A stretch of 64,000 nt of DNA. It comes from Octopus vulgaris (lineage: Eukaryota). Positions 917 to 29,404 of the stretch are shown here, in pieces. The stretch's first letter is position 1. Each line of letters begins with the position of its first letter. Below the pieces are notes generated by a model that worked only from the letters and a program-made list of their open reading frames with translations, did no database searches and was not told the DNA's origin. A program made the position numbers and the translations under genes. The DNA lies in assembly GCA_951406725.2 (NCBI GenBank), contig OX597819.1, forward strand, positions 30,752,001 through 30,816,000. Direction: 5' to 3'.

Positions 917-1148
917 TATCTGTAAATGTAATATGTGACAATTATGCGGTAGCCATGATAAAACTCAGAGTTTCGGATGCTGAGGTGGAAATCCACATCG
1001 CCATCTCTTCTGTTATCCAGCCATCGGAAAAATTTTTCCAATGGCTAGATAACTGAAGAGATAGCAGCGTGGATTTCCACCTCAGCATCCGAAACTCAGA
1101 GTTTTATCATGGCTACCGAATAATTATTACATATTACATTTACAGATA
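917..1148. repeat. 232-bp imperfect palindrome with no spacer (foldback), Penelope-like remnant
   Basis: 917-1032 is the reverse complement of 1033-1148 (tatctgtaaatgtaatatgt / acatattacatttacagata), centred on ggaaaaa|tttttcc and flanked by (TA)n. Confidence 0.9.
1048..1108 (+). ncRNA. Type I hammerhead ribozyme motif
   Basis: gataa-CTGAAGA-[stem II with gtgga/tccac apex]-GAAA-ctc-a-ga-GTT-ttatc; stem I gataa/ttatc, stem III ACTC-A-GAGT. Confidence 0.7.
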
Positions 1149-1210
1149 AATTCCTCTATTTACATAATATCGAGGTCTCTTTCTTTCTTTTGTTGTCTTA
1201 CCATTTTTAT

Positions 1211-1256
<46 letters not shown>

Positions 1257-3872: not shown

Positions 3873-4097
3873 AATATATATATATATATATATGATATCT
3901 ACCATATGAACTACTGTGGGAAAAATAAGAAAGATATAGTATACAATTTTTTTTTGTGTGTGTGCAGGGGTTCCACGAGACATGTAATTTAAGAGTTATG
4001 CAAGAATAAAAAGGTTGAGAAATACGGATGTACAAATAATGCGCATTATAAAACATCTTTCAAAAAAAAAAGAAAAAGAAAAGCATTTTGTCATAAC

Positions 4098-4612
4098 CTG
4101 CGAGTGTTGCTTTTGGCTAAATCCATCTGAGAAGGCACTGGTTCGACAAGGATAGCATTCCAGCCGAGTTGTATCAAATTGAAAGAGTTACTAGAAATAA
4201 GACCATCGTTGGCGCCGATGTCAATAACGAGACGACTCTGCTTAAAGTTTGAAGTTTGTATACGGCGATAGATGAACCCAAATTCGCCGGCATTTGACAT
4301 ATCAACACCTAAGAATGTTAACTTTGGCATATCATCTTGCTCGTTTTTCGGGTAAGTAATTAAAAATACCCGTTCGACTGTTTCTTCAAGCAATTTTGAA
4401 AGACCTCCATCCTTGCCAGCCTCCAGTAATGATTTTATTGATGGGTTTGTTGATATTTTATCAATAAATCCTCCGTTTGTATTGCTGAAAGACGTCAGAG
4501 CTCCTTTGATCATAAAATATGCATAGAATAAAGCACAATTGAATAGTATAAGTTCGGCTACTAAGAAGGTTACGATGAAATATCGAAAAACAACAGAAAT
4601 CTGACGATACAT
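4098..4612 (-). CDS. First coding exon of a membrane-anchored FkbM/Methyltransf_21-like SAM-dependent methyltransferase
   Basis: ATG at 4612; N-terminal hydrophobic helix; motif I VIDIGANDG plus SNS...GWNAILVEP; CAG|GT donor at 4098/4097. Remaining exons were not found in the window. Confidence 0.75.
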
Positions 4613-5011
4613 TCTGTCGCCGGATTAACAGGACACTGATCAAAGTAAATAAACAAACAATCGAGATTGTGAAAGCGAAACGAAATTCTCCCTCTCAATA
4701 ATAGACCACTCTTCAAGTATGATATTAATTATTCTGCACACTTATTAAAAGTAATTATATATAATTTACAATACATCAATATACAATTTTATTTTAAATA
4801 ATTTTTATGAGGTAAGCATTGCTATTAATAGTTTTTTTTGTGTAGTTGTATAGTAATAATTATTGTATGCTTAAAAATTAGGAATTGATGTTTTTTTTTA
4901 TGAGCTTCTTTCCGCTTTACTCGCAGACTTGAAGTAATCAACATTGTCGCATAATAAATACAATTGAACAATAATGTACAATTTTATTTTAAATAATTTT
5001 TATGAGGTAAG
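4613..5011. promoter_or_regulatory. Probable bidirectional promoter and first exon(s) of RPUSD4
   Basis: Lies just upstream of the minus-strand ATG. Two ATGAG|GTAAG donor sites (4807-4816, 5002-5011) splice in frame to the acceptor at 13030. Confidence 0.5.
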
Positions 5012-6435
5012 TGTAGCAAGACATAATAAATTTATTTTTTTTTTTACTGTAGCACGAATTAGTTGTTTGGGACAGACGCTAACAGTTAAAAGTTAACGTT
5101 GCGCAAATTCAAACAACAATTCTAAAAGAACATCTAAAAACTAAAAAAGTTCAGCCAGTTTCTGAGAAGACGTTGAACTGTTAACAATGTATTACAAGAC
5201 CCTCATTCTGTCAGCTTCATCAAGAACATGGGAAATTACTGTTTTGCTTTCCCAGTCATTATGTGAAATCTTGTGCCCATTGTTTCGCATGACATTAGTT
5301 TCTTTTAAGCAGCTACGAGGCTTAATTATATCGTTTTTATTCGCTTTACTGAAATCGGCCTCTCCAGCGAGATCTGTATCTACTTTGTGTCGTGGAATGG
5401 ATTCAGCTCCAATCCAGAGACTCTATTAATTGTAGTAGTAAGTAAAACTGAGGCGATCTTTCGTTTGTAGTAGCACGTTTCCGTCGATGATTTCCGTAAA
5501 AAACTTTTATTTTTTTACATATGGGCTTGCGGGAACATTTGAAGTAATGAGAGCGAAAGAGACTAAGAGGAAGCGATTTTATGACGAGGGAATTTCTTTT
5601 GAAGTTACCGAAGCATTGATGTACATGTGTGTGTGTGAGCGCGCGTGTGTGTGTGTGTTTGATGGGGTGTGGGAGACAGACAGTATGTTGTGTAAGTGAA
5701 GTGCTTCTGTTAATGTGTGTGAAGAGACAGAGAGAGTAATGTGTGAAAGAGAGATAACTGAAATTTTTTACTCGGAAATTTCAACCACCACCCCAAATTT
5801 GACGGAAATTTCGGAAAGACTTCCGCCCGTCCCTGTCTCCCTATTTTCTCCCAATTTTTTTTACAACCCACCCCCCACCCCCGTTTTAGGACACGGAGGT
5901 TCTGGAAAATTGCCAAAAATCGGCATTGTTAACCCCCACTTCCTCCAATTCTTCAATTTTGACTTTTTCCCCAACACTAACCTTAACCCTAAAATCCTAA
6001 CCCTAATACCCTAACCCTAACCAAAACTACAGAAATGTTTTGAAATTTTTGTCTGAATCATAATGTCTATATTTATCTGCATATTTAGAAAAAAAAATTT
6101 TACAAAAATTTCTGAAAAAAAGTAAAAAATGAAGGAAATGGGGGTGTTGGGTGGTAATTAAAAAATGCCAAATTTTTCCAATTTTTTTACAGATTCATAT
6201 TCCCCGTAGCCGAAAAGCGGGGTCTGTGTCAAAAAAAAATTTTTTTTTAAGGGTGGTTTGGGGGCGGGGGGCAGAAGTCTGCTCCAATTACACAAAGAAA
6301 ATTTTTACACGAGAATCAATACTAGCACTCATCCTTTTAGAAATAACAGCCAAATCTCCCTAGTCACACTGCACCGTCTTTGTTGAACAAAACATACCCA
6401 TACGGTATTTTTACATCTTTTGTGTATAAGAGAAA

Positions 6436-6881: not shown

Positions 6882-8569
6882 AAACGTGTGTGTGTATATA
6901 TATATATATACATGTGTAGATATGTATGTGTGTGTGTGGCGATAACAATACCCTTTTTCCGAATCAATTTTGGTTAAATCTCTAATTTTTACAAGTGCAC
7001 CTTTAACATTTTTTTTTTAAATTTGCATATTCATAGTCTCCGATATCTAAATAAAACCTAGGAATCCGAAGAAATGTCTGATTCTGGAGCATCTTGCAGT
7101 ATTTGGCCTGTGAAGTTCATGAAGGATAAACCTCTTCTATCCGAAATTACCCTACAGGCAGTAAACCATTCACCCATTCAGATGTTGGGTCAGATCTCAC
7201 CTTCTTTAGATTTGAACTTAACATCATGATTTTAAATGGATCTTCATCGTAGCTAACCTGCCTTATCCAGTCTTGGGGGAAGATTTTCTCCACCACTATT
7301 CACTATTAGTGGATGTACGTAAGCAATGCCTTTTGGATGGAACTACTGATCTTTAAATTGTTGGAAAGAATTTGAATACTCCAGTTGTTAGCCCAACAAT
7401 TTTTATCAATGTACCAAGACACATATACCATTCCCTTTTGAACTCTTTCCCAGAGCTTACTAATTTGAACTTCAATGTGAATAGTCCTACTCATTCAATG
7501 AGACATTTTATTTCCAAGAGTGGTGCACCACTTTTTCACGACTGCATCGTCTTCCTCTGGATAAATTCAAGGCAGCAAAGGCTGAGTTTGACCATATGTT
7601 ACAGCTTGGAGGCATTTGTCCTTCTGCAAGCCCTTGGGCCTCTCCTTTGCAGATGGTCCCTAAAGGTTCTGGAGATTTTAGGTTAAAGTCCATGACAGTA
7701 CCTGATAGATACCCTATTCCTCATTCTTGTGATTTTTCATCTTCTTTACATGAATGTACGGGATTTTCTAAGCATGATTTGGTGCGAGTGTATCATAACA
7801 TTCCAGTCAACCCAGATGTTCCGAAAACTGCAATAACTACACCATTTGGCTCATTTTAATTCTTAACCATACCATTTGGCCTCAGGAATGCTACCAGCAC
7901 ATTTCAGCGGTTCATAGATGAAGTCATTCATGGACTAGGTTTCATCTATGCTTATATTGATCTTCTTCTGAAGAGCATGTCCATTGTGTTTCTGGGTCAC
8001 ATTATTGACAGTGAAGGCATTCAACCTCTTCCTGAGTTCAGAATATTGAAGACCTTCCTCCTCCTCCTTCTCTGTGTCATTTCTTTACCCTTTTGAATTT
8101 TAACGACACTTTATTCCTCACTGTGCAGAGCTTCTATCTCCTCTTACTGAAGTGTCAAAGAATCATCAAAAGAAAAACAAGGATATTGTATTAACTTCGA
8201 ACCAGTTGAAATCTTTTAATTCTACACAAGATGAATTTGCTAAAGTGTCCCTCTTATTGCACCTTGTCTCTGATGCAAAGTTTGTGGTTGATGCATCAGA
8301 CACAGCTGTTGGTGCAGTTTTCCAAAAGTTTCATTTAGGACAGTTACAACCTCTTGCATTTTTCTCCTGGAAGTTGAAACCTGCCGAGACACAATACAGT
8401 ACTTTTGGACGCGAGCTCTTTGCCATTTACCTTGCCATAAAACATTTTCAGCATATTCTCAAGGGAAGAAATTTTATGATCAATAATGATCATAAGCCTC
8501 TTTTGCCTTACGATCGAAGCCAGAAAAATATTGACTGAGGGAAACTCAACATCTCGATTTTATACAAAA

Positions 8570-13036: not shown

Positions 13037-14030
13037 ATGAACCCGTCACAGCTTCGACAGGGTCTTCATTGTCATTATTTTCTTAAGCGAAAAAAGTTAT
13101 GTCGAAATATTTGGAATTGTATACCGTTAATTAAGAAATACTCTTCGTCTGTTGATTCGGCAGAAGAAGACTTCTTTGGAATCAGTGAAAAGGACTCGCT
13201 CGGACAACCATCTGAAAAGGTTGATGAAGTTGTAAATAACGATTATATATACAAAAAATATTTACCTAAAATGGTCGATAAAATGTCAGACCCATCGCTT
13301 GAAAAAATTTTTCAAGTACCGTTTGGTAGTATACGACTAGATTCTTATAATAAACATGCCCTTGCTGATAAAATGGTAAGAGAGAAACATGACGTTCATT
13401 TAGGAGACTCGTCATTTGAAAGCAGAATTTCTACAGAGACCGAAGATAATATTTCCAATTTTCGTAAATTAGATGCTTCCAGAAATAAGAACTCAGAGTT
13501 TGAATATATCGATAATCAATATTTTTCACGAACCGAATATGCATCCGAATCGAAGGGATTAATGGATAATGAAAAAATTACTTCATCTGCTAACCATGTA
13601 TTGATGGATTTAGAAAATAAGGATTTGCACAGAAGCCAGAATCATGATTTAAATAATGTTACTCATGAATTTGTATCAGATGAAAACTTTATCGATTCGC
13701 AATATTTCAATAAACCGATGTCCGGAACAACAGATGAGCCACCATCGTTAGAACTAAATTCTACACATCGAGCACATTCTTTGGCAGAGAATAAAGAAGA
13801 TTTGCAAAGAGAAAATCTGCATTTTATTGATAATCAATATTTTGGCCTTAACGATCAAAACGAAGGAGCATCAACCGTCCTGAAAAAGATTAAACCTGTT
13901 TTGACTAAAGAGGAACCTCTTGAAATAAAGGCTCAGTCAAAACCACCTACCCATGATGATGATGAAACAGAGAATGCATTTAATGTAGCTATGAAGATTC
14001 GAAAAAAACTTCGGGAGGAAAACGTTCGAG
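13037..14030 (+). CDS. RPUSD4: RPUSD4 large N-terminal exon
   Basis: Acceptor ttccag at 13029, long ORF, donor GAG|gtaaat at 14030; joins in frame to 15171. Confidence 0.8.
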
Positions 14031-14583
14031 GTAAATTGCATTATCTTTGGGTTTATTTCATTCATGGTTTGCAGTGTTCTCTCACCAACTCTCTTTCACA
14101 CACATGCACACACACTATCTCTCTGATATAAAAACACTGTCTCTGTAACATAAACACACACACACCAGGTTTGGTTTCGTTATTACACAAATATCGCATT
14201 ACAATTTTGCAATTCAACATGGGACGTCCAAAAAATATGGGCATTCTTTCGCTTGAACCCGCATGCCAAAATGTGCGACAGAAAAAGAACATCTAGCAGC
14301 AAAGGCACAATGGCAAACAATATCATAAAAATTATAAAAATTATTAGAAATGGGAATCAAATGTGAAAATATTGGCGATCCTTCGGTATATGTACACACG
14401 TGACTTTGTTTACATTTCTGAAGATAACAGAAACCCTTTTCTCCCACCCCTAACACAAACCCTAACCCCCCATATATAAAAAAAACCCCACTTTCTTGAA
14501 ATGTATCCGGTACTTATACCGAAGTTACGCCAAAATATTATCTAGTGGTTAGCAGAAAACCGCCTGGGGCGGTCTTTCAGCTA

Positions 14584-14624
<41 letters not shown>

Positions 14625-17600
14625 GAGATAGGGGTTGAAAATTCAACCCACCATGGGATAACATATATCCAATATACTGCTAGAGAGGTACCCAACAAAG
14701 TATTGATTGGGTATCATCTGATGGTTGATGTTTGATTGATTTAAGTATGTTTCTCCATTTTCTAATTTTGTAGTATATATATATATATACTTTATTTTAA
14801 GCAGCAGAAAATTCAACAAAATCTGTTACTCTGAGTTTCTCGTTGCCGTTCATCAGACAGTTTTTGCTAGAATGGAACTCTATATATATATTGTGCATTC
14901 CTCTTTATAAGCATCAAATCTATATCTCATTTCCAAATCACCAATGAACAAAGTAGCCAGAAAATGCATGCTCGAATTAGGATTCGTTAATTAAACTTGG
15001 GACTTCTGAATTGGTTGAAACTACCGTGGCTCTAAATATGCTAAGTTCTTTCAGTTTCTATTCCATTTGTTTCTGTAACTCTTATTTTATTGCTACCCTT
15101 ATTTAAACTTCTATTTCAACTGTGATATTTCCAGATTTTTTTCTAATTCTTTACTCGGTTTCTACCACAGATCCTGATGGTCCTCTTTTAGACAGTAAAG
15201 GTTTCCGTATTTTGAAAGACCAAGTTACTGATTTAACTAAACTGACAAGCTATGAAATCGTAAATCATATTAAAAGCAGAATTATTTATAATAGGAGTAA
15301 GTATAACTCTTATTACATTTTTGCATTTTCTGTATATTTATTCCATATATATGTGCAGGCATGGCTATGTGGATAAGGTGTTTGCTTCTCAACCATGTGG
15401 CTTTTAGTTCAGTCTCACTGTATGGCACATTCTACTATAGCTTTAGACCAACTAATGTCTTGTGAGTAAATTTGGTAAACAGAAATTGTACAGAAGCTTG
15501 TTGTGTGTGCATGCATGTCTATGAATGTTTACATTCTGTGTTGAGTAACTGTGAAGCTTGGTATCATTCCATGCCAACGAATCATTTAGCTCTGCACTAT
15601 TGAAAACATACCGAATAAAACAAAATTTTAAATCCCTTACTTGAAAAATAGTATGAAATACTGACAGGAAGGGCCGTTGTAAAATGGAAAACATTGTCTC
15701 AATACGTAGTCATCTAAGCCATGCTAGCATGAAAAAATGGATGTAAAACAAAATCGACAACAGTTTGTATGGCTATGATAAAAAATATTGCAACAATAAT
15801 CACTTTATTAGCACTGCATAAAACACATAGATATATAATAAAGTGGAAAGTTGGTGAACATAAAATTAGGAAGCTAGACACAATATTTAATTAATTAAAA
15901 TTACACAAGCAGAAAAAAAAAAGAAGATAATCATCATCGTTTAACGTCCGCTTTCCATGCTAGCATGGGTTGGACAATTTTGACTGAGGGCTGGTGAACC
16001 AGATGGCTGCACCAGGCTCCAATCTTGATCTGGCAGAGTTTCTACAGCTGGATGCCCTTCCTAACTCCAACCACTCCGTGAGTGAAGTGGGTGCTTTTTA
16101 CGTGCCAGACGAGGCTGGCAACAGCCATAATCAGATGGTGCTTTTTACGTGCCACCGGCACGGAGGTCAGTCGGGGATGGCAATGGCCACGATCGGATGG
16201 TGCTTTTTACGTGCCACCGGCACCGGCACGGTGACCAGTCGGGGCAGCGCTGGCAACAACCACATTCGGATGGTTCTTTTACGTGCCACCGGCACTGGTA
16301 AGTATTAAGTATGACATGGGTACTGATGGAGAGCTACTAATAGTTTGGTGGTTAACATTGGAAGAGGGTGACATTATTGCAGACTAACATTGAGATAGAA
16401 TGAAAGAATGCAGTTTAGAGAATTGTTACTATTGTTGCCATCAAAGTCGGCTCTCTTGAGGAGTGGCTGTGTGGTAAGTAGCTTGCATACCACATGGTTC
16501 CGGGTTCAGTCCCACTGCATGGCACCTTGGGCAAGTGTCTTCTACTATAGCCTCGGGCCAACCAAAGCCTTGTGAGTGTGTTTGGTAGACGGAAACTGAA
16601 TGAAGCCCGTCGTATATATGTATATGTATGTATGTGGTGTACATGTTGGTGTATCTGTGTTTGTCCCCCACAACATCGCTTGACAACTGATGCTGGTGTG
16701 TTTACGTCCCCGTAACTTAGCGGTTCGGCAAAAGAGACAGATAGAATAAGTACTAGGCTTACAAAGAATAAGTCCTGGGGCCGATTTGCTCAACTAAAGG
16801 TGGTGCTCCAGCATGGCCAGAGTCAAATGACTGAAACAAGTAAAAGGGTTGCAGGAAGCAATGCTGGAAAGGGGATAATATTCTGGAGAGGGGAGATTTA
16901 GAAAAGTGGGGACATGAAAGTCTTGCAAGGGAAACAGTATAGGTGATGAGAGGTCAACTGAGTACATCAGAGGTCTTGAGTGAAGGTGATATGATCAGAC
17001 CTTAGTGGTGGGTTATGTTGATGGCATAGCACAGGATTGAAATTCATTACAGCTCAGTGCAATGTATACTGGTATAGAAATATGGATGTTACATCATCAT
17101 CGTTTAATGTCCGCTTTCCATGCTAGCATGGGTTGGACGATTTTGACTGAGGGCTGGCGAACCAGATGGCTGCACCAGGCTCCAGTCTTGATCTGGCAGA
17201 TTTTCTACAGCTGGATGTCCTTCCTAACGCCAACCACTCCAAGAGTGTTGCGGGTGCTTTTTACGTGCCACCGGCACGGGCGTCAGTCAGGCGGTACTGG
17301 CAACGACCTTGCTCGAATCTTTTTACACATGCCAGTGAAGCGACGTTGGTAACAATCACGCTCGAATTGTGCCCTTTTACGTGCCACGGGTACGGAAGCC
17401 AGTTGGCTCCTCTGGCAACGATCTCGCTCGGATTAGCACCCTACTAGCACATGCACAAGTGCTAGTAAGGCGACGCTGGTAACGATCATACTCAAATGGT
17501 GCCCTAGGAAAATTATTTTAATCTATGATAGAAGTTAAAATCCTTAGTACAAAACGTGTAGGTAATGTTATTAATACTCTATTTTAAATATTAAAGATTA

Positions 17601-20252
17601 CTTGAAATGGAGTACATGTTTCTTGTTGAGAAAAATACTAAACAATGAGTTATTACTACACTCAATTATGATATCAATATACTGAAATACTTTCTTTTTT
17701 TCTGCATTATTTTTGGTTCTCAGAATGTTATAGCATTCTACAGTTTTGATGCAATGTTGCATCTGAAACTAATTCCTTTCTCATATACTATTTACAGTTA
17801 GTTATTCATTCCTTCAGTTTATATGTAGTTCATGAAGTTATGAAAAACAGACTCAATTACACATTAGGCTCTAATTATATAATACTATTGCTAACAATTA
17901 ATACAATATTCTCTAGTCATTAAGTGGTTTTGTTATTTAGTTCAATGCTTCGTTTATCTGTCCAAAGCATTTGAAATGTTTTAAGGAATTATCTGCATGA
18001 AACATCAAGTAAAAGCTGAAGATATAAATTTTACTCATTCATTGCATAAACTTACCATTTTTTTACTGATGTCGTAATTGTAGAAATAAGCTGTAGTCAG
18101 TCTTCACCTTGTTTTGAATTACTCTCTCTTTACTCTTTGACTTGTTTCAGTCATTTGACTGCGGCCATGCTGGAGCACCACCTTAGTCGAGTAAATCGAC
18201 CCCAGGACTTATTCTTTGTAAGCCCAGTACTTATTCTATCGGTCTCTTTTGCCGAACCGCTAAGTGACAGGGACGTAAACACACCAGCATCGGTTGTCAA
18301 GCAATGCTAGGGGGACAAATACAGACACACAAACACATACACACACATATATATATATATATACGACAGGCTTCTTTCAGTTTCCATCTACCAAATCTAT
18401 TCACAAGGCATTGGTCAGCCCGGGGCTATAGCAGAAGACACTTGCCCAAGATGCCACGTAGTGGGACTGAACCCGGAACCATGTGGTTGGTTAGCAAGCT
18501 ACTTACCACACAGCCACTCCTGCGCCTATAACATTTATTTTAAATATTTGGTTTAATGAATCTGCATTCTTTATTTTTACGTAATCCTGTCTACTATAGG
18601 CGCAAGGTCTGAAATTTGGTGGGGAGGGACTTGTGGGTTACGTCAACCCCAGTATTCAACTGGTTCTTTTTTAATTAACCCCAAGACAATGAAAGGCAAA
18701 GTCAACCTTGATGGCATTTGAAATCGGAACATAAAGCTGGAAGAAATATACTTTTTCTGGTGCAGTAATGATTCTCCTAGTTCACCACCTTTATTTCTTG
18801 ACCTTTTTGACACCAACCCAGCTGAAACCACCTCTGGCTCTAGTACAAATGTCTTGTTTTCATAAGGTTTGAATTAAAATCTTCCACCAACACTTAGTCA
18901 CAATTTATGTTCCTAACGCAAGCTTAATGATAACTAAGTTATTTTACTAAATTCTTTGTTATATTTAAAACTAGCAGTATCGCCCGGCGTTGCTTGGGTT
19001 TGTAAGGGAAATAACTATATAAGCATTTTTAGAGAGTTATAGCCAAAAAATAGCAAAAAAATGCATTAAAAATGGGGGAAAAATTATGGTAAATTTTTTT
19101 TTAAATCGTTGACTCATCGTAGACATTTTTAGAGAGTTACTTCCCTTATATAATAGCGAAAAAATGCATTAAAATGGAAAAAAAGGATGGTAAATTTTTT
19201 TAATATTGTAGACTCATCGTAGACGCGCGCTAATACCCAGAAGGGCTCGATATGAATCACAACTATAGGATACCCGGTTTTGGTTAAACTGCACTGCAAA
19301 ATGTGGGAGTAGTTAGGAATCTAAATCGTAGGAGACAGACACACAACTTCACTTTTATATATAAAGATTAATTGAAAGAAACACAGAGCATCTCAACAGA
19401 AATATGGTAATAAAAGGGTTGAATAATAGAAATGAAAGAATATGAAAGAATGTGAAATGTATTTTCTTATTTTATGTTACAGATGACATTGTTGCTATCA
19501 ATAAGCCATATGGCCTGTCTTCTCATGGTAAGTTGATATTTATGAAGCCTATCTTTTATTTAAACTCAGTGAATGCCTTAACAATTCATTAATATGGCAA
19601 GCTAATGAAAGAGCCTTTACACCTGACTTTTCTAATAAGTGACACTTATGCTTTCCAAATATACTGCAGTTTTAAGACATTTCAGAAATGTCAAAGTATT
19701 TATTGTTTAGTGGTAAAGTGTAGCATGTTACCTATCTCCACTTTAAAAATAATTAAATTTTGTTTCTTATGTAATATAACTTTAGAAAGGCAATGACAAA
19801 CTATTCCGCTTTTTGTATTTGGATTGCAAAAGGTTGAAAATCACTGCTCTACACAATCACTTGGCCTGCTAGAAATAGTCACCATATTTCCTACAAGTCA
19901 CACCCTAAAGTCAGTCAGTGTGAGTTGAAGAGTTAAGAATTTTGCTTCTCAACTACTTGGTTTTGAGTTTAGTCCCACTGTGTTGCACCTTAGGCAAGTG
20001 TCTTCTTTTAAAGCCCCTGGTTGATTAATATTTTGTGAGTGAATTTAGTAAACATATATATATCTACCATCTTTATAATGTTATTAATTAACATGAAAAT
20101 AATTATATGTATTGATGGAAAACCTCTATAAACGGCCGATGATTGCTCAACATTTTAAAACTGTTGTAATACTTACAATGTTTAATAAAATGATGTAGTG
20201 TGAAACGATCTTACCAAATTACCGAAGATATTCTTGTTGCTTATTTTGATTT

Positions 20253-20294
<42 letters not shown>

Positions 20295-23200
20295 TATTAA
20301 GTCATACAAAGCAGGATTGAACAAAGTGTATTTGTTTAAAGTCATATAAGATGTATTCAACATACATTCAAATGTATGAAGATCTTTTGCAGCTGAAATA
20401 CTCTCGGGAGGCATGGGAGCATTGCGGCATTGTACACCTTTATCTTCATGTTGGGGGGGAAACGTCATGGCAGTTCCATGGAACAATATGTATACATAGC
20501 ATTTGAGAACAACTTTGCAGAATAAACAACAATTGTCATATCATAACAGGATATGTTCTTTCCACAAAAGGTGCTGGTTACTGAAGGAAGGATAGCAGCA
20601 GTGACGTTATTTATCCTATAATTCATCCTCATCATCTTGAATGGTGAAGAAATTGTTCGATTTTTATGGTGCTTCATCCCTTTGTTCAGTAAAGGAACTG
20701 CTCATTGTAAATTGGTAAACTTCTCATGATTTCTATGTTACATTCACAATTAAACTTGTTACCAGCAAAAATTTGCAGACGTTCTTCTGAGTGCCAACTC
20801 TTAGCAATCAATTCAAGTGGAACTTTGGGAATATTTGTATTCTCAACCTGTATCTTTGCTTTTAATCTAACAGCACCAGCTCCTCCTTAAACTTTCTCTA
20901 TGGAGCACGACCACATCATCCTGTATGATTTTTTGCAAAACTACTTTATTTGCAAATGTCATGATATCTTTGTGAATTTGATGTAAGCTTTCTTTTCTTG
21001 GAATATTTGTAAAGTCATAGATACAGCCTAGCCATGTTTTTTTCCCCCAAACACCATTCAAATCTGAGGGTTACATTTCATTCCTAGTCAGATGGGTGGG
21101 CATTTGGACAACCTGCAATCTGCAGGACATTCTGAACAGCACAGTGAACAAAAATTTACCTTGGATTTTTGTACCTCATTATGGGCCAGGTCTCATGCAG
21201 CCCACTTCTTGAAAAGCATGTCTGAGATAGATAGACAAATGGATAGAGACTTACTTGCTCGCTCACCTCACATAAGAGACACAAACACCTGTGTACACAC
21301 ATTTACACGTGTATGTATGTATATAATGTGACTAGTTTTTCAAATTAACTATATTTGATGTTAAATAAAAAAGCATTTTTGGTGAAGGAAAAAGTGTAAC
21401 TTTTAAACTGTTACAATTATTTCATTATCATCATCATCGTTTAACGTCCGTTTTCCATGCTGGCATGGGTTGGACGGTTTGACTGCAGTTTGGAGAGCCA
21501 GCACCTACACCAAACTCCAATCTGGTGCTGCTGCTGGCTCTCCAGACCTCAGTCAAACTGTCCAACCCATGCCAGCATGGAAAACTTAAGTTAAACGATG
21601 ATGATGAAGATGATGAAATAATTATAAAAGTTTGGGTTTCCATGAGGAACTGTTACAATTTATTTGAATTTCTAATGCAGACCATATCCCCATATTAATA
21701 ATCATACTTTATAATTCTGTAAGTACAAAATCCCATAGTATGATGTAGCTATAATGCAGGATATATATATTATAAAGTAATAGAAATATATATATTATGG
21801 AGTTAAATACATATCCTTTACTTACCCTTATCTTTGCTCACTTTTGCTTTTGTCATTTTTGCCTAAGAAACTGTTATATATTGGGATGTCCGAAAAGTTT
21901 GTGCTGATTTATAGTAGCTTACCTTTCAGCTTATTTTAGAACATGGTTGAGTCCACAAAATAGGATTTGACTACACCTCCATTTAGATCACAGTTTAAGC
22001 TATCTTTTTGTGGAAGAAGTTTTATGTTCTTATAACCTGTGTTAATTCTGTAACCCTTTAAAATGGAAGATAAGAAAGTTCATTTTTGGCACTTGATACT
22101 TTGGGAACTAGACAAAAATTGCTGCAGCTCGGCTGGGATGTGTTACCCCACCCTCCATATTCACCAGATATTGATCCTTCAGATTTCCACTTATTCAGGT
22201 CTCTGCAGAATAGTCTTAATGGTAAAAATTTCAATTCCTTGGATGATGTAAAAAGATACCTTTGCCATGAAACCACCTCAATTCTGGGAAGAAGGTATAT
22301 TCAAGTTAAAGATGGAGATGCATTGTGCAACAAAATGGTTCATATTTGGTTGATGAAAAATGTAATGGCAAGTATTTATTGACCTTTTTCTTTCCCTTAA
22401 AAATCAGCACGAACTTTCCGGACAACCCAATACTTTCAAGAAAGACTACATAATCATCCATCACTGAATGCTTTTATTATCAGTTTGGTCATAGCACCTT
22501 CTAACTAAAACAAGTGAGCAAAGAAACAGTAAATTAATGGACTAAATTATCTAGAGTCAGTGGACTCAGAGTAATAGTTCAACGAGAGGGCAAAATTGTC
22601 TACAGCTAGTAAATATTATTTAAGGAAATGTAAAACTATATAATCTAATATCCTTTCCTTGTTTATGGTTCCTATTTCTAGTAACCATATAAGGTCACTT
22701 CATTAATTTGTGGTCAATAACAATTGGCAACAAATTAATGAAGGTATCTTTATGTGGTTCATGTAGTAGCATGACAGACTATTGCTTATGTTAAAAATAA
22801 TTATGATAATTTTTTGATTTAGAATTTCAGTTTAATTGCTGGTAGGAAGGAACATATTTCATTCTTGTTATACAATATATTTACTTTTAGGTGGTCCCGG
22901 TGTGCATGTGAGTCTAGCAGATCTACTACCAGAACTTGCAGCTAAGATTTACCACAAAGGAACACTCCATCTTATCCATCGCCTTGACAAAGAAACCACA
23001 GGGGTTCTCTTACTTGCAAGGTAAAAGTATTTTCCTTGGCACCTCTCTGTCTATTCAGTTATTCTCTTTCATCAGAAGACAGCTAATAATAAATCATTTG
23101 TTTTTAAAATTATATTTCATATAGGACAGCAGAAATGGCAGCTGTTCTTCATAAGATGTTCAGAGAACAAGAAGTTCTCAAAACGTACTGGGCCATAACT

Positions 23201-26200
23201 AAAGGTGTACCAAATCCTGATGTTGGTATGTATTTTGCCTCTAAAATTTCTGACTATCTCAGATTCCAAAACAAACTTATTTTAATTTTTGTGGAGTTTT
23301 TGAATCATTTTCTAAATCAAAACTATTTTCTTAGTACCGTTTCCTGTCATTGTCATCATTGTCTTGTGTGACCATTATTTACAATGAGCATGCTGTAAAG
23401 AGTTTCTTCCTACTTCTTTTCTGCAAACATGGTTCTTTTCCTGATGGCATCAGAGTCCTGTCTCTTTTTCTATTTGTTATAATTTTTGTGATGGCTAGTT
23501 TACTTTAAAGCCTTTCAATTCCAGAGAAAAGCTACGTATATAGGGAATTATGGTATGGGCATATAATGTGCATAGGTGAAGATAGTTGCATAAAAAGTAC
23601 TACATGCACAAAGTGGATGATATCAGTAGAAGAGAAACTCCTAGAAAGACATGGAATAGTGGAAACCAATTCCAATGTGTTAAGCCTCAGAAAGTTGTTG
23701 ACAGCCAACCGTAATAACTGGTGATATGCTGTACTGTAGAAAACCCACTCTCCTGATCTAGCATTGCACAATGAATGCTAATGAGAGGAATGTTCTTACT
23801 GCATTCATCCACTGCTCCTCCTCTGCCTCTATCTCATTATCCTCTCTTAACTATCTCCCTACATGGGATGCTGTGATACAAGTGAAGGCGCATGGCTCAG
23901 TGGTTAGAGCGTCGAGCTTACGATCGTGAGGTTGTGAGCTCAAATCCCGGACTGGGCTGCGTGTTGTGTTCTTGAGCAAGACTCTTTATTTCACGTTGCT
24001 CCAATTCATTCAGCTGTAGAAATGAGTTGCGACGTCACAGGTGCCAAGCTGTATCGGCCCTTGCCTTTCCCTTGGATAACACTGGTGACGTGGAGAGGGG
24101 AGGGCGGTATGCATGGGCGACTGCTGGTCTTCCATAAAACAACCTTGCCCAGACTTGTGCCTCAGAGGGTAACTTTCTAGGTGCAAGCCCATGGTCAGTG
24201 TCTGACCGAAGGGGGTCTCAACATGGGATGCTGTCTCTACTTGCATCCTCTGCTCTCTTCTATTACTATGGAAACCTCCAGCCTTTCTTTCTCTAATTAA
24301 ACCTCCATTCAGTACTACTTCCCTGTGTTTCTTTCTCTCACTGTCCTCTCTTCACAGCCCTTCTGCTTAAGATGATATCTCTGCATTCATACCAATCTCC
24401 ATCCACACCTATGTGATACTTCCAGTTTTTTTTTATACCTTGTATGGTATTTTGCATATCATTATCATCTTTGTTTTATTCTAATATGTGTCACTGGTTT
24501 ATTGAAATTATCTTTGTTCCCAGCTAAGTTAGAACAATCAATTGTCACTTATTTTCTTAACTCATTTTCATTTTATTCATGCAAATTATGTAGGCCATAA
24601 ATATGTTCTTTCTGTTTTTCTAAATGTCTCATTATCCTGGAGATAAGGCAGGGCTACTGCTGAGCTGATGATGCCTATTGTGGCTGGAACATCTGTCCAC
24701 AACTAATGTCTTGTCTTTTCCTTAATTACTTGTCAATTTTGGAGAATTTGTGAGATTTTTATCCACTTCCCATTAGGAGTTGCTCTCAATTACCAACAAG
24801 CAAATAGTTCAGTCTTCTCTGGAAGCAAAGATAATTTCATTGATCTAGGATTTATTTTGTACGGTATTTAGTATGCCCCTATCTTTGTTGCTCAGATACA
24901 TGCCTCTGGTTACTCTGAATCATTTGTCATGCTGGAGAACAGATGATCGTCAGATGAGACCAAATCAAGAGAGTAGGGATGATGATTAACCAGTTTAAAA
25001 TCAGTCAAGCACAGCAGCCATTGAAACCAAGAATTTGTAAGGGCATCCAGCCGTAGAAACACTGCCAGATCTGACTGGGCCTGATGAAGCCTTCCGGCTT
25101 CACAGACCCCAGTTGAACCGTCCAACCCATGCTAGCATGGAAAACGGACGCTAAACGATGATGATGATGATGATGATGATCAAAAAAGAGATCCCTTTCA
25201 TCAGTTTTCTTGGGCATTTGGTCTTGATAGTCTTTCATAACTGTCTCAGCAAGCTGGCATAATACCCTCCATTGATGGTGTAGCCCTTTTGAAGATAATA
25301 AATACAATGCCTTTTGCATCCCCAGAAACCAAAGGCCATCACCTTCCTTGCAAATGGAACCACTTTGGCCTTTCTTGAAGATGAGGAGGGATGCTTTAAT
25401 TTTCTCCATTTATATATTTATTTAACTTTCTTTTTATTTGTCAAGGAATTATTGATATCCCAATCGCTGAAGGATCAATTGATGGGAAATCAAGAGTAAG
25501 TTTCAAGATTTTACTTCTAATCATATATAATTCACATCAGTACATTGAATTACAATTAATGAGTGGAATTCATTGCTGATAATAAATACCCATTGATATT
25601 TTGCTAGATTATTAAGGTACCAACCTACCATTCTTGGGTTGATGATATTTAACCCATTGCCACCAGTGCACAGTATTGCTTACTAAAACACTCAACTTTC
25701 ACTTATTTGTAAATACACACCACAAAAAAGTTACAGTTTATTGCAGTAGGGAGTAGAACTTGTGTTTCTTTCACTTTCATTCCTAAGTTCAAATCTTCTT
25801 GGAGACAAAACCAATTTTAGTCATTGCATTTAGCAAGGTTATGGAAAGAGTTTTGATGAAGCACTTAATTAAAATGAATTGAACAAGGATAGCCTTGGAA
25901 GATGTTGCATATCAATAAAGATAAGAATTTTTTTTTTCCACAATCTGAAATATACTTTCCTTCATTTTCTACAATGCTCTTCTATCTATCTGGTAGACTT
26001 GCAAGGCCCCTCTTCAGAAATTCATTTGTCTGTGACAAAAAATACTCCGCCAGTACTGCTCTGGCCTCATCTACAGAATTCATATTTTTTCCGTCCAAAT
26101 GATTTTGAAGACTGCAGAATAAATGATAATCAGATGGGGCAATGTCCAGCGAATATGGTAGGTGGAGCATCATTTCCCATTCAAATTGCTCCAGCTTTTG

Positions 26201-29200
26201 GGATGCCATCCTTGTTGTATGTGGCCGAGCATTATCCTGATGGAAGAACACCTTTTGTCTTGAAACCAAATATGGTTATCTTTCTTCTAATGTTGACTTA
26301 AGCCACTCAAGCTGCTCATAGTAGATCTCCTTTGTTATCATTTGGTTTGGGTTCAAAAATTCAAAGTGGACTAAACTTGTCATATCTCACCAAAGAGATA
26401 ACAACATCTTATGTGGGTGAAGACCTTCTTTAGTCTGGGGTGCTGGTGTTCCTCCTTTCCCTACCCACTGTCTTCAGTGCTTGACATTTTTATAGAGAAC
26501 CCATTTTTCGTCATAATTCACTATTTGGTCCAAAAAGGTTTATTCATGAGATCTGACAGCAAAGAAAGGCACAAATTCACTCTCTGTGTGCAATTAGACT
26601 CGGAAAGTTTATGAGTAACCCATTGACCCAATTTGCTGACTTTTCCGATGGCACACAGGTGTCAATGAATGGTTAACTGACCAAATCCAAGCTTCTCTGC
26701 TAGTTCCTCAACAGTTATGATGGAATTTTGCTCCACCAGGGTTTGCAGGACATCCTCATCAAGCTCTACAGATCTTCCAGGATGAGGTTCATCTTATAGG
26801 CTGTAGTTTCTGGCTCGGGAATACTGGAACCACTGTTGACACTCCATATACTGCATTAATATTCCTTACACTCTCCGTTGTGCTGTTGCCTTTATTGAAC
26901 TCATAAAACAAAATATGATGAATATGCTCCTTTGTCACTTCCATTATAACTTAAAAATCGAACTGCATTCTTCAAAACTTGCATTAAGAATGACAAGCTA
27001 AAATTACTACCTTCTTTTATAGCAAGTTGCTGCAGGTAGTTTATCCCGTCCCTCTGCAACTTTTAGTTCATGCAATAATAAAAACCCACATTGTTTATGG
27101 AATGACCTAATATATATGGTCGAACCCATGCCAGCATGGAAAGTGGACGTTAAATGATGATGATGATGACATACACACAAACATGCTTACCTATATCAAA
27201 TTCCTCTATGCAATTATATTAGGATGCTAAAGCCTTCTCACATAGTCAACTTTAATAGCTGCTTTCTACTCCGAAACTATACTCAACATAATAGAAATAT
27301 TTTATTAAATCTTAAATAATCAAGTATGTTGCTTGTCCTATTCATTAAACACTTACCAGCTTATTTTATTATTATTATTCAGTTCTGCTGGCTATAAACG
27401 ATGTGTATAAAATATCTTCATTCTGCACTTTTTATTTTTCTATTCCCTCTAAGATGGTTCTGAAACCTGACTACACTGAAGAAACCCGATTGGTAATGAA
27501 GAAAAGTTCAGTGAAACGATCTGAAGCTGTTACTCACTACAAAGTATTGTGTAAATCATTTGGAAGTGCTTTAGTGGAATGTCAACCAAAGACAGGTAAT
27601 TCTCTCTGAATTGTTTGATTCAGTTTCCTCCTTATTTTAATACAGCACCCACTACACTCTCGGAGTGATTGGCATTAGGAAGGGCATCCAGGTGTAGAAA
27701 CTCTGCCAGATCAAGACTGGAGCCTGGTGCAGCCATCTGGTTGCCAGCCCTCAGTCAAAACCGTCCAACCCATGCTAGTTTACCATATTTTCTGGCATAC
27801 AAGTCAACTCAATACATTGTATAAACACATGTAAAACATTCAAACTATCTTTCCAAATCCTCCTGCATTTTACATGGAAATTTTGTTCCTCCGAAATCAG
27901 CTTACCTTTTTTCGCTGTAAATTCTGGTCTATAAAATTCAGCTTGTATGTGGAAAATACGGCACTGGTTTTTAATAGGTTTTTTTTTTCTTTCTTTTTAA
28001 TAGCAACTTTAAAACTGGTTCTTTTTCAGGTGTCAAGCATCAAGTTCGAGTTCATTTAGCATTTGGTCTCAACACACCTATTATTGGAGACCACAAATAT
28101 TCACATATTAACAAACTTGCTCCTCAGGTAAATAATCTTTGTGTTTCTGTAAATTTGTCTGTCATATTAGACTAAGAAAAGGTCAAGCACATTAAAGTAT
28201 GACTTGATAATTCATAGTGATCTTTTGTGAATGAAATATTGCTGAAAACATTTAAGATTTTGAACCAATAAATGATTGAAGAAAAGTTCATGTGGTTGAC
28301 TGGTAAAAATAATTCCCAGTTTTAGTGCCGCAAAGAAAATGTTCATTTTTTTTTTCACAAGTGCAAGGAAACAACATATTAAATTGACCTTTTCAGTTTC
28401 CATTGCTTATACTAAAATATAGGGATGATGGGTGTGGTTGTAAGATTTCTTTCACCACCAAGTGCTTTTGGTATCAATCTCTCTGTGTTATCTTGGACAG
28501 GCATCAGACCAACCAATACATTGTGTGTGAAATTTGATAGATGGAAAATGTATGGAATATCATCAGATATAGCTTTGTGGTTGAGAAATTTGCTTCCCAA
28601 GTATATGGTTTCAAGTTCAGTCCCACTTGAAGCAAGTGTTTTTAATCATGGTTTTTGGTTGATGGAAACAAGCCCATTGTGTATGTGTCTGTTTTTATCC
28701 CCTTGTCTTGATATAGTGTGATAGTTGTAAATCATTGTCCCAGTTATACAAGCCATACCATCCATTACAAGCATATTGTAAGAACATATCTGGTCATGTT
28801 CTTGCAGAAATATTACTTCACTTGAAAAGAGGTGAAGGTTGGCAACAGGAAGGGCATCAAGCTGTAGAAAATTTGCCTAAATATATTCCATCCACCCATG
28901 CTTGTTCACTTTGTCCTCATTTGAGTAAAAACAATGTACGTGTCCTGTAAACAATACATCTCATAACTTGTGAAAACCATTGAAAGAAGTTTGTCATTGA
29001 GAAGAGAATTTGGCTGTTGAAAACGGCCTTGAAAACGTCCAATTTTCGCTAGTATGGATGTAAAAGATTATGATATCTCTGAATTAACATTGAATTAAAA
29101 GAGTGCTGACGAAATTTTTGTGAAGTGTTCAAGTATTTAAAGTAATTTATCTTCAAGACCAACCAAGATTTCACATTCTAACTTTTAATGTTGCTATTTT

Positions 29201-29404
29201 GGTCTTTTTCAGCGTTTGTTTCCAGAAATATTACAGCGCCTAAATGTCCGACAAAGTAAAGTACGTTATATACCAATGCATCTCCATTCAAAAGCTATAA
29301 TTCTCCCTCAACTACTTAATGGTAAAAACCTGTTCATAAAAGCTAATTTACCATACCATTTCTACAAGAACATGAAGAGCTTAAAGCTTAAAACAGACAA
29401 GTAA
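13037..29404 (+). CDS. RPUSD4: Mitochondrial RNA pseudouridine synthase RPUSD4 (RluA family), joined CDS about 625 aa
   Basis: join(13037-14030,15171-15296,19483-19527,22891-23020,23125-23225,25446-25495,27454-27595,28030-28127,29213-29404) = 1878 nt, all GT-AG and phase-consistent. Motifs [19 protein letters not shown] (catalytic Asp) and [20 protein letters not shown]. Confidence 0.92.
14823..14860 (-). ncRNA. Minimal type I hammerhead ribozyme motif
   Basis: Minus strand: ctgt-CTGATGA-acg-gcaa-cga-GAAA-ctc-a-ga-GTA-acag. Confidence 0.7.
15171..15296 (+). CDS. RPUSD4: RPUSD4 exon
   Basis: cag|ATCCT...AGGA|gtaagt; [15 protein letters not shown]...IKSRIIYNR. Confidence 0.85.
15931..16298 (-). 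mobile_element. RTE LINE 3'UTR fragment
   Basis: Same sequence as 1499-1860, with a (CAT)n end. Confidence 0.8.
16458..16847 (+). mobile_element. tRNA-derived SINE family A
   Basis: Near-full copy. Confidence 0.8.
17092..17503 (-). mobile_element. RTE LINE 3'UTR fragment (subfamily shared with 41258-41611)
   Basis: (CAT)n end, conserved tail and internal repeat units. Confidence 0.8.
18121..18527 (-). mobile_element. tRNA-derived SINE family A
   Basis: Full reverse-complement copy. Confidence 0.85.
18971..19367 (-). mobile_element. Non-autonomous Helitron
   Basis: Minus strand starts TC and ends CTAG with a subterminal GC-rich hairpin (cccaagcaacgccggg); inserted between A and T without TSD, inside a piggyBac-type MITE. 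Confidence 0.75.
19483..19527 (+). CDS. RPUSD4: RPUSD4 exon (motif I)
   Basis: ag|ATGACATT...CATG|gtaagt; [16 protein letters not shown]. Confidence 0.9.
21425..21616. repeat. Inverted pair of RTE 3' tails forming a hairpin
   Basis: (CAT)n-gtttaacgtccg...ttggacggtttgactg / cagtcaaactgtccaa...gttaaacg-(ATG)n. Confidence 0.8.
21881..22430 (+). mobile_element. Internally deleted mariner element
   Basis: TIRs ttgggatgtccgaaaagtt / aactttccggacaacccaa, TA duplication, and [21 protein letters not shown]. Confidence 0.85.
22891..23020 (+). CDS. RPUSD4: RPUSD4 exon with the catalytic HRLD motif
   Basis: GGPGVHVSL...[16 protein letters not shown]; AG/GT boundaries. Confidence 0.93.
23125..23225 (+). 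CDS. RPUSD4: RPUSD4 exon
   Basis: [29 protein letters not shown]; AG/GT boundaries. Confidence 0.92.
23875..24220 (+). mobile_element. tRNA(Arg)-like SINE family D with a 14-bp TSD
   Basis: A box tggctcagtgg; TSD acatgggatgctgt at 23861-23874 and 24221-24234; second copy on the minus strand at about 44210-44550. Confidence 0.8.
24890..25400 (-). mobile_element. Degenerate mariner transposase fragment interrupted by an RTE tail (25038-25181)
   Basis: [15 protein letters not shown] and [14 protein letters not shown] remnants. Confidence 0.6.
25446..25495 (+). CDS. RPUSD4: RPUSD4 exon
   Basis: aag|GAATTATTGAT...AGA|gtaagt; [17 protein letters not shown]. Confidence 0.85.
25900..27110 (-). mobile_element. 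Degenerate near-full-length mariner element
   Basis: [10 protein letters not shown]...[14 protein letters not shown]; N-terminus MEVTKEHI near 26944; TIR-like end at about 27087-27112. Confidence 0.8.
27454..27595 (+). CDS. RPUSD4: RPUSD4 exon
   Basis: MVLKPDY...AVTHYKVL...[10 protein letters not shown]. Confidence 0.92.
28030..28127 (+). CDS. RPUSD4: RPUSD4 exon
   Basis: [26 protein letters not shown]...LAPQ. Confidence 0.93.
29213..29404 (+). CDS. RPUSD4: RPUSD4 last coding exon
   Basis: [10 protein letters not shown]...IPMHLHSK...LPYHF...TDK*; AATAAA at 29499 and 29645. Confidence 0.9.
   Translation, partial: RLFPEILQRLNVRQSKVRYIPMHLHSKAIILPQLLNGKNLFIKANLPYHFYKNMKSLKLKTDK

What the first reader, a model, noticed from the sequence alone, without database searches (positions are those of the whole stretch)
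14823..14860. 38-nt minimal hammerhead antisense in an RPUSD4 intron
Seen: all conserved core nucleotides are present, with a GUA cleavage triplet, a 4-bp stem I, a GCAA-capped stem II with one A-A mismatch, and stem III ACUC-A-GAGU. That stem III is identical to the one in the 1048-1108 motif despite unrelated flanks. The unit lies between (TA)n tracts. Known: single-nucleotide-loop stem III hammerheads typically need dimerisation.
Basis: partly seen in the sequence, partly recalled or inferred. Interest (0 to 1): 0.72.

Follow-up and report, generated by a model that had tools for sequence, protein, structure and literature searches.

The report
Penelope retrotransposon stub carrying hammerhead ribozyme
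This is the broken-off 90-base tail of a common octopus jumping gene, carrying the small hammerhead-shaped RNA motif known from such elements; it lies backwards in an intron and likely does nothing to the host gene.

Summary
The motif is real but ordinary. Window 14823-14860 (minus strand) has a full type I hammerhead core, a GUA site and the stems described. The exact 38-mer occurs 3,422 times in this genome, control 0. It is the terminal-repeat ribozyme of a young Hydra-clade Penelope-like retroelement: full-length copies carry it twice, about 3.4 kb apart, around a 711-aa RT-endonuclease ORF with the Hydra motifs. The window holds only a 5'-truncated 90-bp 3' stub in (TA)n, antisense in intron 1 of RPUSD4, so the pre-mRNA carries no core. 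The A·A mismatch is this subfamily's own state, not decay. The stem III shared with 1048-1108 is a clade trait: that motif belongs to a second family with a Hydra-like endonuclease, and 5 of 25 published Hydra hammerheads have it. One detail is worth keeping: about 1,300 more diverged sister motifs have a U4C core, while the largest, least diverged subfamily has canonical U4. Cleavage is untested.

The parts
14823..14860 (-). Minimal type I hammerhead motif (pLTR ribozyme of the element); predicted cut between 14827 and 14826
   Evidence: 3,422 exact genomic copies
14815..14868 (-). Motif with extended stem I (4 bp, A·A loop, 7 bp)
   Evidence: predicted pairing
14790..14879 (-). 5'-truncated 90-bp 3' stub of a Hydra-clade Penelope-like element; 3' end at 14790, no 72-nt tail
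   Evidence: 96-99% identical to ends of full-length copies
14774..14789 (.). (TA)n target tract at the element's 3' end
   Evidence: 56 of 122 sampled 3' ends run into TA, 63 into the tail, 3 other
14881..14891 (.). (TA)n tract at the 5' truncation point, where the element itself reads ATATAT (microhomology inferred)
13037..14030 (+). RPUSD4 coding exon 1
14031..15170 (+). RPUSD4 intron 1 (GT..AG, 1,140 nt), host of the stub
   Evidence: joint in 4 of 4 runs
15171..15296 (+). RPUSD4 exon 2 (absent from annotated X2 isoforms of two Octopus species)
14623..14773 (.). Separate short interspersed repeat in the same TA tract, not part of the element
   Evidence: found between TA tracts without the stub at most sampled loci
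1048..1108 (+). Hammerhead motif of a second, more diverged family (long stem II), preceded by an inverted partial copy

Best explanation
The 38-nt motif is the hammerhead sequence at the 3' end of a high-copy Hydra-clade Penelope-like retroelement, and the window copy is a 90-bp truncated stub lying antisense in RPUSD4 intron 1, where it is likely inert. Shown: full-length copies read pLTR(hammerhead)-ORF-1.05 kb 3' UTR-pLTR(hammerhead), with inverted truncated copies, a 72-nt tail and (TA)n targets. Inferred: the element's endonuclease nicks (TA)n, its RT copies the RNA from near the 3' end, and early termination at an internal ATATAT left this stub. Inferred: in element RNA two hammerheads pair through the near-palindromic stem III (4 bp, A·A, 4 bp) and cut weakly after GUA, 37 nt before the 3' end; one copy alone is predicted to misfold. 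The RPUSD4 pre-mRNA carries the reverse complement, with no core, so it would not be cut.
For: 3,422 exact 38-mers, control 0; 4,135 with free stem II and loop 3. Same-strand hammerhead pairs 3,352-3,443 bp apart around a 727-codon frame in L088, L089, L091, L092; 6 of 7 regions fetched for this purpose hold the unbroken frame. ORF has RWK, DKT, YRDD, CxCx5C (8 of 35 copies; F for the second C in 27), VY..YTG, CxxC, CxH, the Hydra diagnostics (PMC8557442 section 11), and reads alongside Hydra-1_Obim and Hydra-2_Amil by eye. Inverted truncated copies flank the ORF in 9 of 12 regions by self-BLAST. Host strand has no CUGANGA at 14761-14900. The homodimer minimum-energy fold of the 56-mer is exactly the double hammerhead, -23.0 kcal/mol; the monomer hammerhead fold (-5.7) lies 4.7 above a misfold (-10.4). 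Dimer behaviour and low activity of such motifs: PMC4209133.
Against: No cleavage assay. The dimer gains only 2.2 kcal/mol over two misfolded monomers, less than 493 of 500 shuffles gain, and the dimer ensemble is mixed. Stem II lacks the conserved 10.1-11.1 pair, so the motif may be nearly dead. No Rfam hammerhead match. No Pfam family hit the ORF, so clade assignment rests on motifs and visual comparison, not on a tree. Antisense transcription through the intron was not tested: only contigs were available.
Confidence: 0.88

Rival explanations
1. The element is as described, but its hammerhead is a catalytically dead relic carried along because it sits in the 3' end that the RT copies first.
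For: Position 11.1 takes A, G, U or C across subfamilies, so that pair is not kept. About 1,300 sister motifs have U4C, a change said to lower activity considerably in vitro (PMC3088659). Ribozyme mutants did not affect insertion in vitro for an anole element (PMC11167929).
Against: A mismatch at 10.1·11.1 is seen in 15 of 25 listed Hydra hammerheads (14 U·U, 1 U·C by my reading); 2-bp stems II and U·U starts occur in active natural hammerheads, and U4C still supported viroid infectivity. The largest subfamily has the canonical core.
Confidence: 0.35
2. The stub has been co-opted as a regulatory ribozyme of RPUSD4 (antisense RNA processing or an effect on exon 2 splicing).
For: Intact core, 310 nt upstream of an exon that annotated X2 isoforms skip.
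Against: Wrong strand for the pre-mRNA; identical to thousands of young copies, so intactness reflects age; exon 2 skipping is annotated in two other species too; flank contigs of 2 of 4 runs stop matching at 14881 with 16 and 18 unmatched letters, a weak hint that the stub is missing there.
Confidence: 0.03
3. The unit is a free-standing non-autonomous retrozyme or SINE that replicates as a small circular RNA.
For: Many copies are short or hairpin-like; animal retrozymes are reported as derivatives of Penelope-like pLTRs (bioRxiv 10.64898/2026.07.22.740005, abstract).
Against: No short head-to-tail hammerhead arrays among the listed matches; 5' ends vary while the 3' end is fixed, and longer copies run straight into the ORF.
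Confidence: 0.04

Closest known systems
Hydra clade of C-terminal EN+ Penelope-like elements (PMC8557442; Hydra-1_Obim, Hydra-2_Amil, Penelope-3_HM)
   Same: Single RT + C-terminal endonuclease ORF, RWK, DKT, CxCx5C, CxxC and CxH, (TA)n targets, 3' hammerhead. Hydra-2_aMil has the same stem I, core and cut site and a stem III differing only in the loop base; Penelope-3_HM has the identical stem III.
   Different: A different family from Hydra-1_Obim (other hammerhead, other protein). Unit about 3.4 kb against 'generally <3 kb'; tail about 72 nt against 30-40; stem II of 2 bp with A·A, not seen among the 25 listed; 38 nt against a listed minimum of 40.
Minimal PLE hammerheads (min-HHR; PMC4209133)
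   Same: Type I, in both flanking repeats about 3 kb apart, thousands of solo copies, opposite-strand pairs, palindromic stem III, predicted dimers.
   Different: Those typically have a long helix II with G10.1-C11.1 and almost no helix III; this one has a very short helix II without that pair and a 4-bp helix III.
Non-LTR retrozymes of animals (bioRxiv 10.64898/2026.07.22.740005, abstract only)
   Same: Type I hammerheads related to Penelope-like pLTRs.
   Different: Retrozymes are tandem non-coding units; this is a truncated end of an autonomous element.

Membership tests
Type I hammerhead ribozyme | Core CUGANGA, GAA, A15.1-U16.1, H17 | tested here: met
Type I hammerhead ribozyme | Three helices, helix I open | tested here: met
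   Pairing possible for all three; helix II only 2 bp, helix III needs a 1-nt loop or a dimer
Type I hammerhead ribozyme | 10.1-11.1 pair (strongly conserved, not universal) | tested here: not met
   A·A here; G, U, C at 11.1 in sister copies; mismatch in 15 of 25 Hydra motifs
Type I hammerhead ribozyme | Match to an Rfam hammerhead model | tested here: not met
Type I hammerhead ribozyme | Compensatory changes in the stems among homologues | tested here: inconclusive
   Copies are too young (1-3% apart); no formal covariation count was run
Type I hammerhead ribozyme | Self-cleavage after N17 | not testable with these tools
   Needs an assay; only contigs could be laid
EN+ Penelope-like element | Single ORF with RT and C-terminal GIY-YIG-type endonuclease | tested here: met
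   YRDD at 360 and VY..YTG at 598 of the 727-codon frame; motif reading, no Pfam hit
EN+ Penelope-like element | pLTRs with hammerhead, 5' truncation, inverted copies, optional tail | tested here: met
Hydra clade | RWK and DKT motifs | tested here: met
   positions 53 and 129
Hydra clade | CxCx5C linker; CxxC and CxH near the C-terminus | tested here: met
   CxCx5C intact in 8 of 35 copies, C-to-F in 27; CxxC 683, CxH 711
Hydra clade | No CCHH in the endonuclease | tested here: met
   No cysteine between the VY and YTG blocks in the printed protein, read by eye
Hydra clade | (TA)n insertion | tested here: met
Hydra clade | Placement in the Hydra branch of an RT tree | not tested
   Named Hydra references were seen only as supplement text; no tree built
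Naiad clade | N-terminal endonuclease, no canonical hammerhead | tested here: not met
   Endonuclease is C-terminal and a hammerhead motif is present
Non-LTR retrozyme | Short non-coding units in tandem | tested here: not met
   Copies join the 3' UTR and ORF of the element

The most novel reading that the evidence does not exclude
The family is a natural experiment on what Penelope hammerheads are for: earlier master copies spread with an impaired U4C core, a later master regained U4 while losing the 10.1-11.1 pair and then made the largest burst, and its 38-nt dimer-only form with a 2-bp stem II is among the smallest working natural hammerheads.
Probability: 0.15. Interest if true: 0.5.

Novelty: new member of a known kind. 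Interest (0 to 1): 0.2.

Why it matters
For RPUSD4 it does not matter: one of thousands of antisense stubs. For transposon biology it adds a recently expanded Hydra-clade family with intact ORFs in Octopus and a very compact hammerhead. The role of hammerheads in EN+ Penelope-like elements is called unclear (PMC8557442); the three subfamily variants give ready-made sequences to compare in one cleavage assay.

Tried and rejected
Rfam scans found no hammerhead. Pfam scans of the ORF gave 0 families. A protein search gave 932 relatives at E<=1e-30 among 7,995 scored candidates; of the 120 listed only one had an organism name and none a PLE name, so it did not fix the clade. Naiad was my first guess and was dropped on domain order. 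The dimer-gain control did not support special dimer stability. Run search: no RNA holder on record listed; contigs cannot show strand, ends or level. No contig was listed that joins across the stub, so an empty site is not shown. Earlier scan findings could not be consulted. The 2017 paper on small Penelope hammerheads cleaving as dimers (PMC5785218) was not held; I saw only its title in a reference list. One column was off by one base and was replaced; the divergence figures include loci picked for likeness to the window, so (pattern-search loci only) is the one used.

Full report
Observation. The reverse complement of 14823-14860 gives stem I (4 bp), the core C3-A9, a stem II made of A10.1·A11.1, two G-C pairs and a GCAA loop, G12-A14, stem III ACUC-A-GAGU, A17 and the closing arm. 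The cut is predicted between 14827 and 14826. Stem I can extend by 7 pairs past a 1x1 loop. Rfam found no hammerhead at gathering score or E up to 10, and the 38-mer alone folds no better than shuffles. Chance is excluded by copy number: 3,422 exact 38-mers in the 2.8-Gb genome, 0 for the reversed control.

Host gene. Exon 13037-14030 is 98% and 90% identical to two Octopus proteins with PF00849, named RPUSD4 in the database, and identical over 331 residues to an entry labelled O. vulgaris. Eight further exons map to 15171-29401 on the + strand. Four of four laid runs, guessed but not recorded as RNA, from four studies, join 14030 to 15171 over a GT..AG intron. The motif is therefore in intron 1 and antisense; the host strand at 14761-14900 has no CUGANGA.

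What it belongs to. Flanks of genomic copies share the sequence on both sides of the motif up to a fixed 3' end 37 nt after the cut site; that end runs into (TA)n in 56 of 122 sampled ends, into a constant extension of about 72 nt in 63, and into other sequence in 3. Twelve regions between opposite-strand motif pairs were fetched; 9 show long inverted repeats between the motifs and 7 contain RT or endonuclease frames of at least 150 codons. Seven regions chosen for a long ORF or same-strand motif pairs show pLTR-ORF-3' UTR-pLTR: motifs 3,352-3,443 bp apart in four regions, and an unbroken 727-codon frame (711 aa from the first Met in most) in 6 of 7. The protein has RWK, DKT, YRDD, a CxCx5C linker, VY..YTG, CxxC and CxH and no CCHH. 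These are the diagnostics given for the Hydra clade, which inserts into (TA)n and carries hammerheads (PMC8557442 section 11). It resembles Hydra-1_Obim and Hydra-2_Amil by eye but is neither. No tree was built and Pfam gave no hit. The window's 14790-14879 is 96-99% identical to these 3' ends and breaks off where the element reads ATATAT: a 5'-truncated stub.

The A·A mismatch is the state of the main subfamily, not decay. A 19-mer with G at 11.1 has 1,372 matches and with U 263. Most of these have C at core position 4: 1,300 matches with C4 against 93 with U4 and a non-A base, 18 of them U. Among 57 classifiable of 67 distinct copies from pattern-search loci, difference from the group majority outside the searched core was 28 of 2,028 bases for U4/A (23 copies), 23 of 1,229 for C4/G (15) and 38 of 1,397 for C4/U (16); U4/A against pooled C4 p = 0.005. 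The samples are small and from the start of one contig, so the order C4 before U4 is an inference; C4 to U4 is also a CpG transition that needs no selection. In the published table, 15 of 25 Hydra families have a mismatch at 10.1·11.1 by my reading, none A·A, and 5 of 25 have ACUC-N-GAGU. The 1048-1108 motif belongs to a second repeat (copies 86-91% alike); 4 of 30 loci with its upstream sequence hold endonuclease remnants 27-32% identical to the first family's, with CxCx5C, one ending 900 bp before the motif on the same strand. The shared stem III is thus a clade trait.

How it likely works. Shown: anatomy, copy number, target, orientation. Inferred from the family literature: the endonuclease cuts AT-rich DNA and the RT starts at two internal sites of the RNA that define the tail (PMC11167929, passages); early termination leaves stubs and inverted copies (PMC8557442, passages). 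A 1-nt loop cannot close stem III well; the monomer hammerhead fold is 4.7 kcal/mol above a misfold that pairs the core with stem III, while the lowest-energy homodimer is exactly the double hammerhead. That support is weak: the dimer gains 2.2 kcal/mol, less than 493 of 500 shuffles, and its ensemble is mixed. Related minimal motifs cut poorly and only as dimers (PMC4209133, parts 1-2 of 4), and ribozyme mutants did not block insertion in vitro in an anole element. I put weak dimer cleavage at about 0.6 and a dead relic at about 0.35. At this locus there is one copy on the untranscribed strand, as far as tested, so an effect on RPUSD4 is unlikely.

Novelty. Hammerheads in Penelope-like elements, solo copies by the thousand, the Hydra clade and an Octopus member are in print. 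A 2026 repeat annotation of O. vulgaris lists 31 recently active Penelope-like families with no mention of hammerhead or Hydra in its main text (PMC13282606, passages; its supplement was not read and may include this family). Searches for hammerhead with octopus, Hydra clade or cephalopod gave no paper on this family in the held library. Other papers seen: PMC3088659 and PMC6765202 (passages), bioRxiv 10.64898/2026.07.22.740005 (abstract and outline; supplements closed).

Verdict. Real motif, known kind, new family member, incidental position. Interest 0.2.

Noticed in passing
G000 genome-wide; e.g. L125-L148: Sister subfamilies of the element carry a U4C core with G, U or C at 11.1 (about 1,300 motifs) and look more diverged than the U4/A·A subfamily.
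   Followed up: partly
L088, L089, L091, L094 ORF position 580: 27 of 35 sampled ORF copies have F in place of the second Cys of the CxCx5C linker, including unbroken full-length frames.
   Followed up: partly
L088-L092: Tail of about 72 nt and 3' UTR of about 1.05 kb, both longer than described for the clade.
   Followed up: partly
window 935-1212: Hairpin-type insertion (inverted partial copy plus hammerhead end) of a second, more diverged Hydra-like family with a long stem II and A or G in loop 3.
   Followed up: yes
window 14623-14773: Unclassified short repeat with imperfect inverted ends that sits in TA tracts; next to the hammerhead element also in L002 and L020.
   Followed up: partly
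window 15171-15296: RPUSD4 exon 2 is missing from annotated X2 isoforms in two Octopus species; exon 1 encodes an unusually long (331 aa) N-terminal region before the synthase domain.
   Followed up: no
window 14881: Flank contigs of runs X15 and X16 stop matching here with 16 and 18 unmatched letters: weak hint of an empty site.
   Followed up: no
window 14154-14560 and 5979-6020: Another high-copy repeat with AACCCT-like runs in the same intron, and a similar run at 5979-6020.
   Followed up: no
window 4091-4624 (-) and 7485-8538 (+): An exon-like ORF of a methyltransferase-like gene and broken LTR-retrotransposon pol-like frames (labels from recall, not tested).
   Followed up: no
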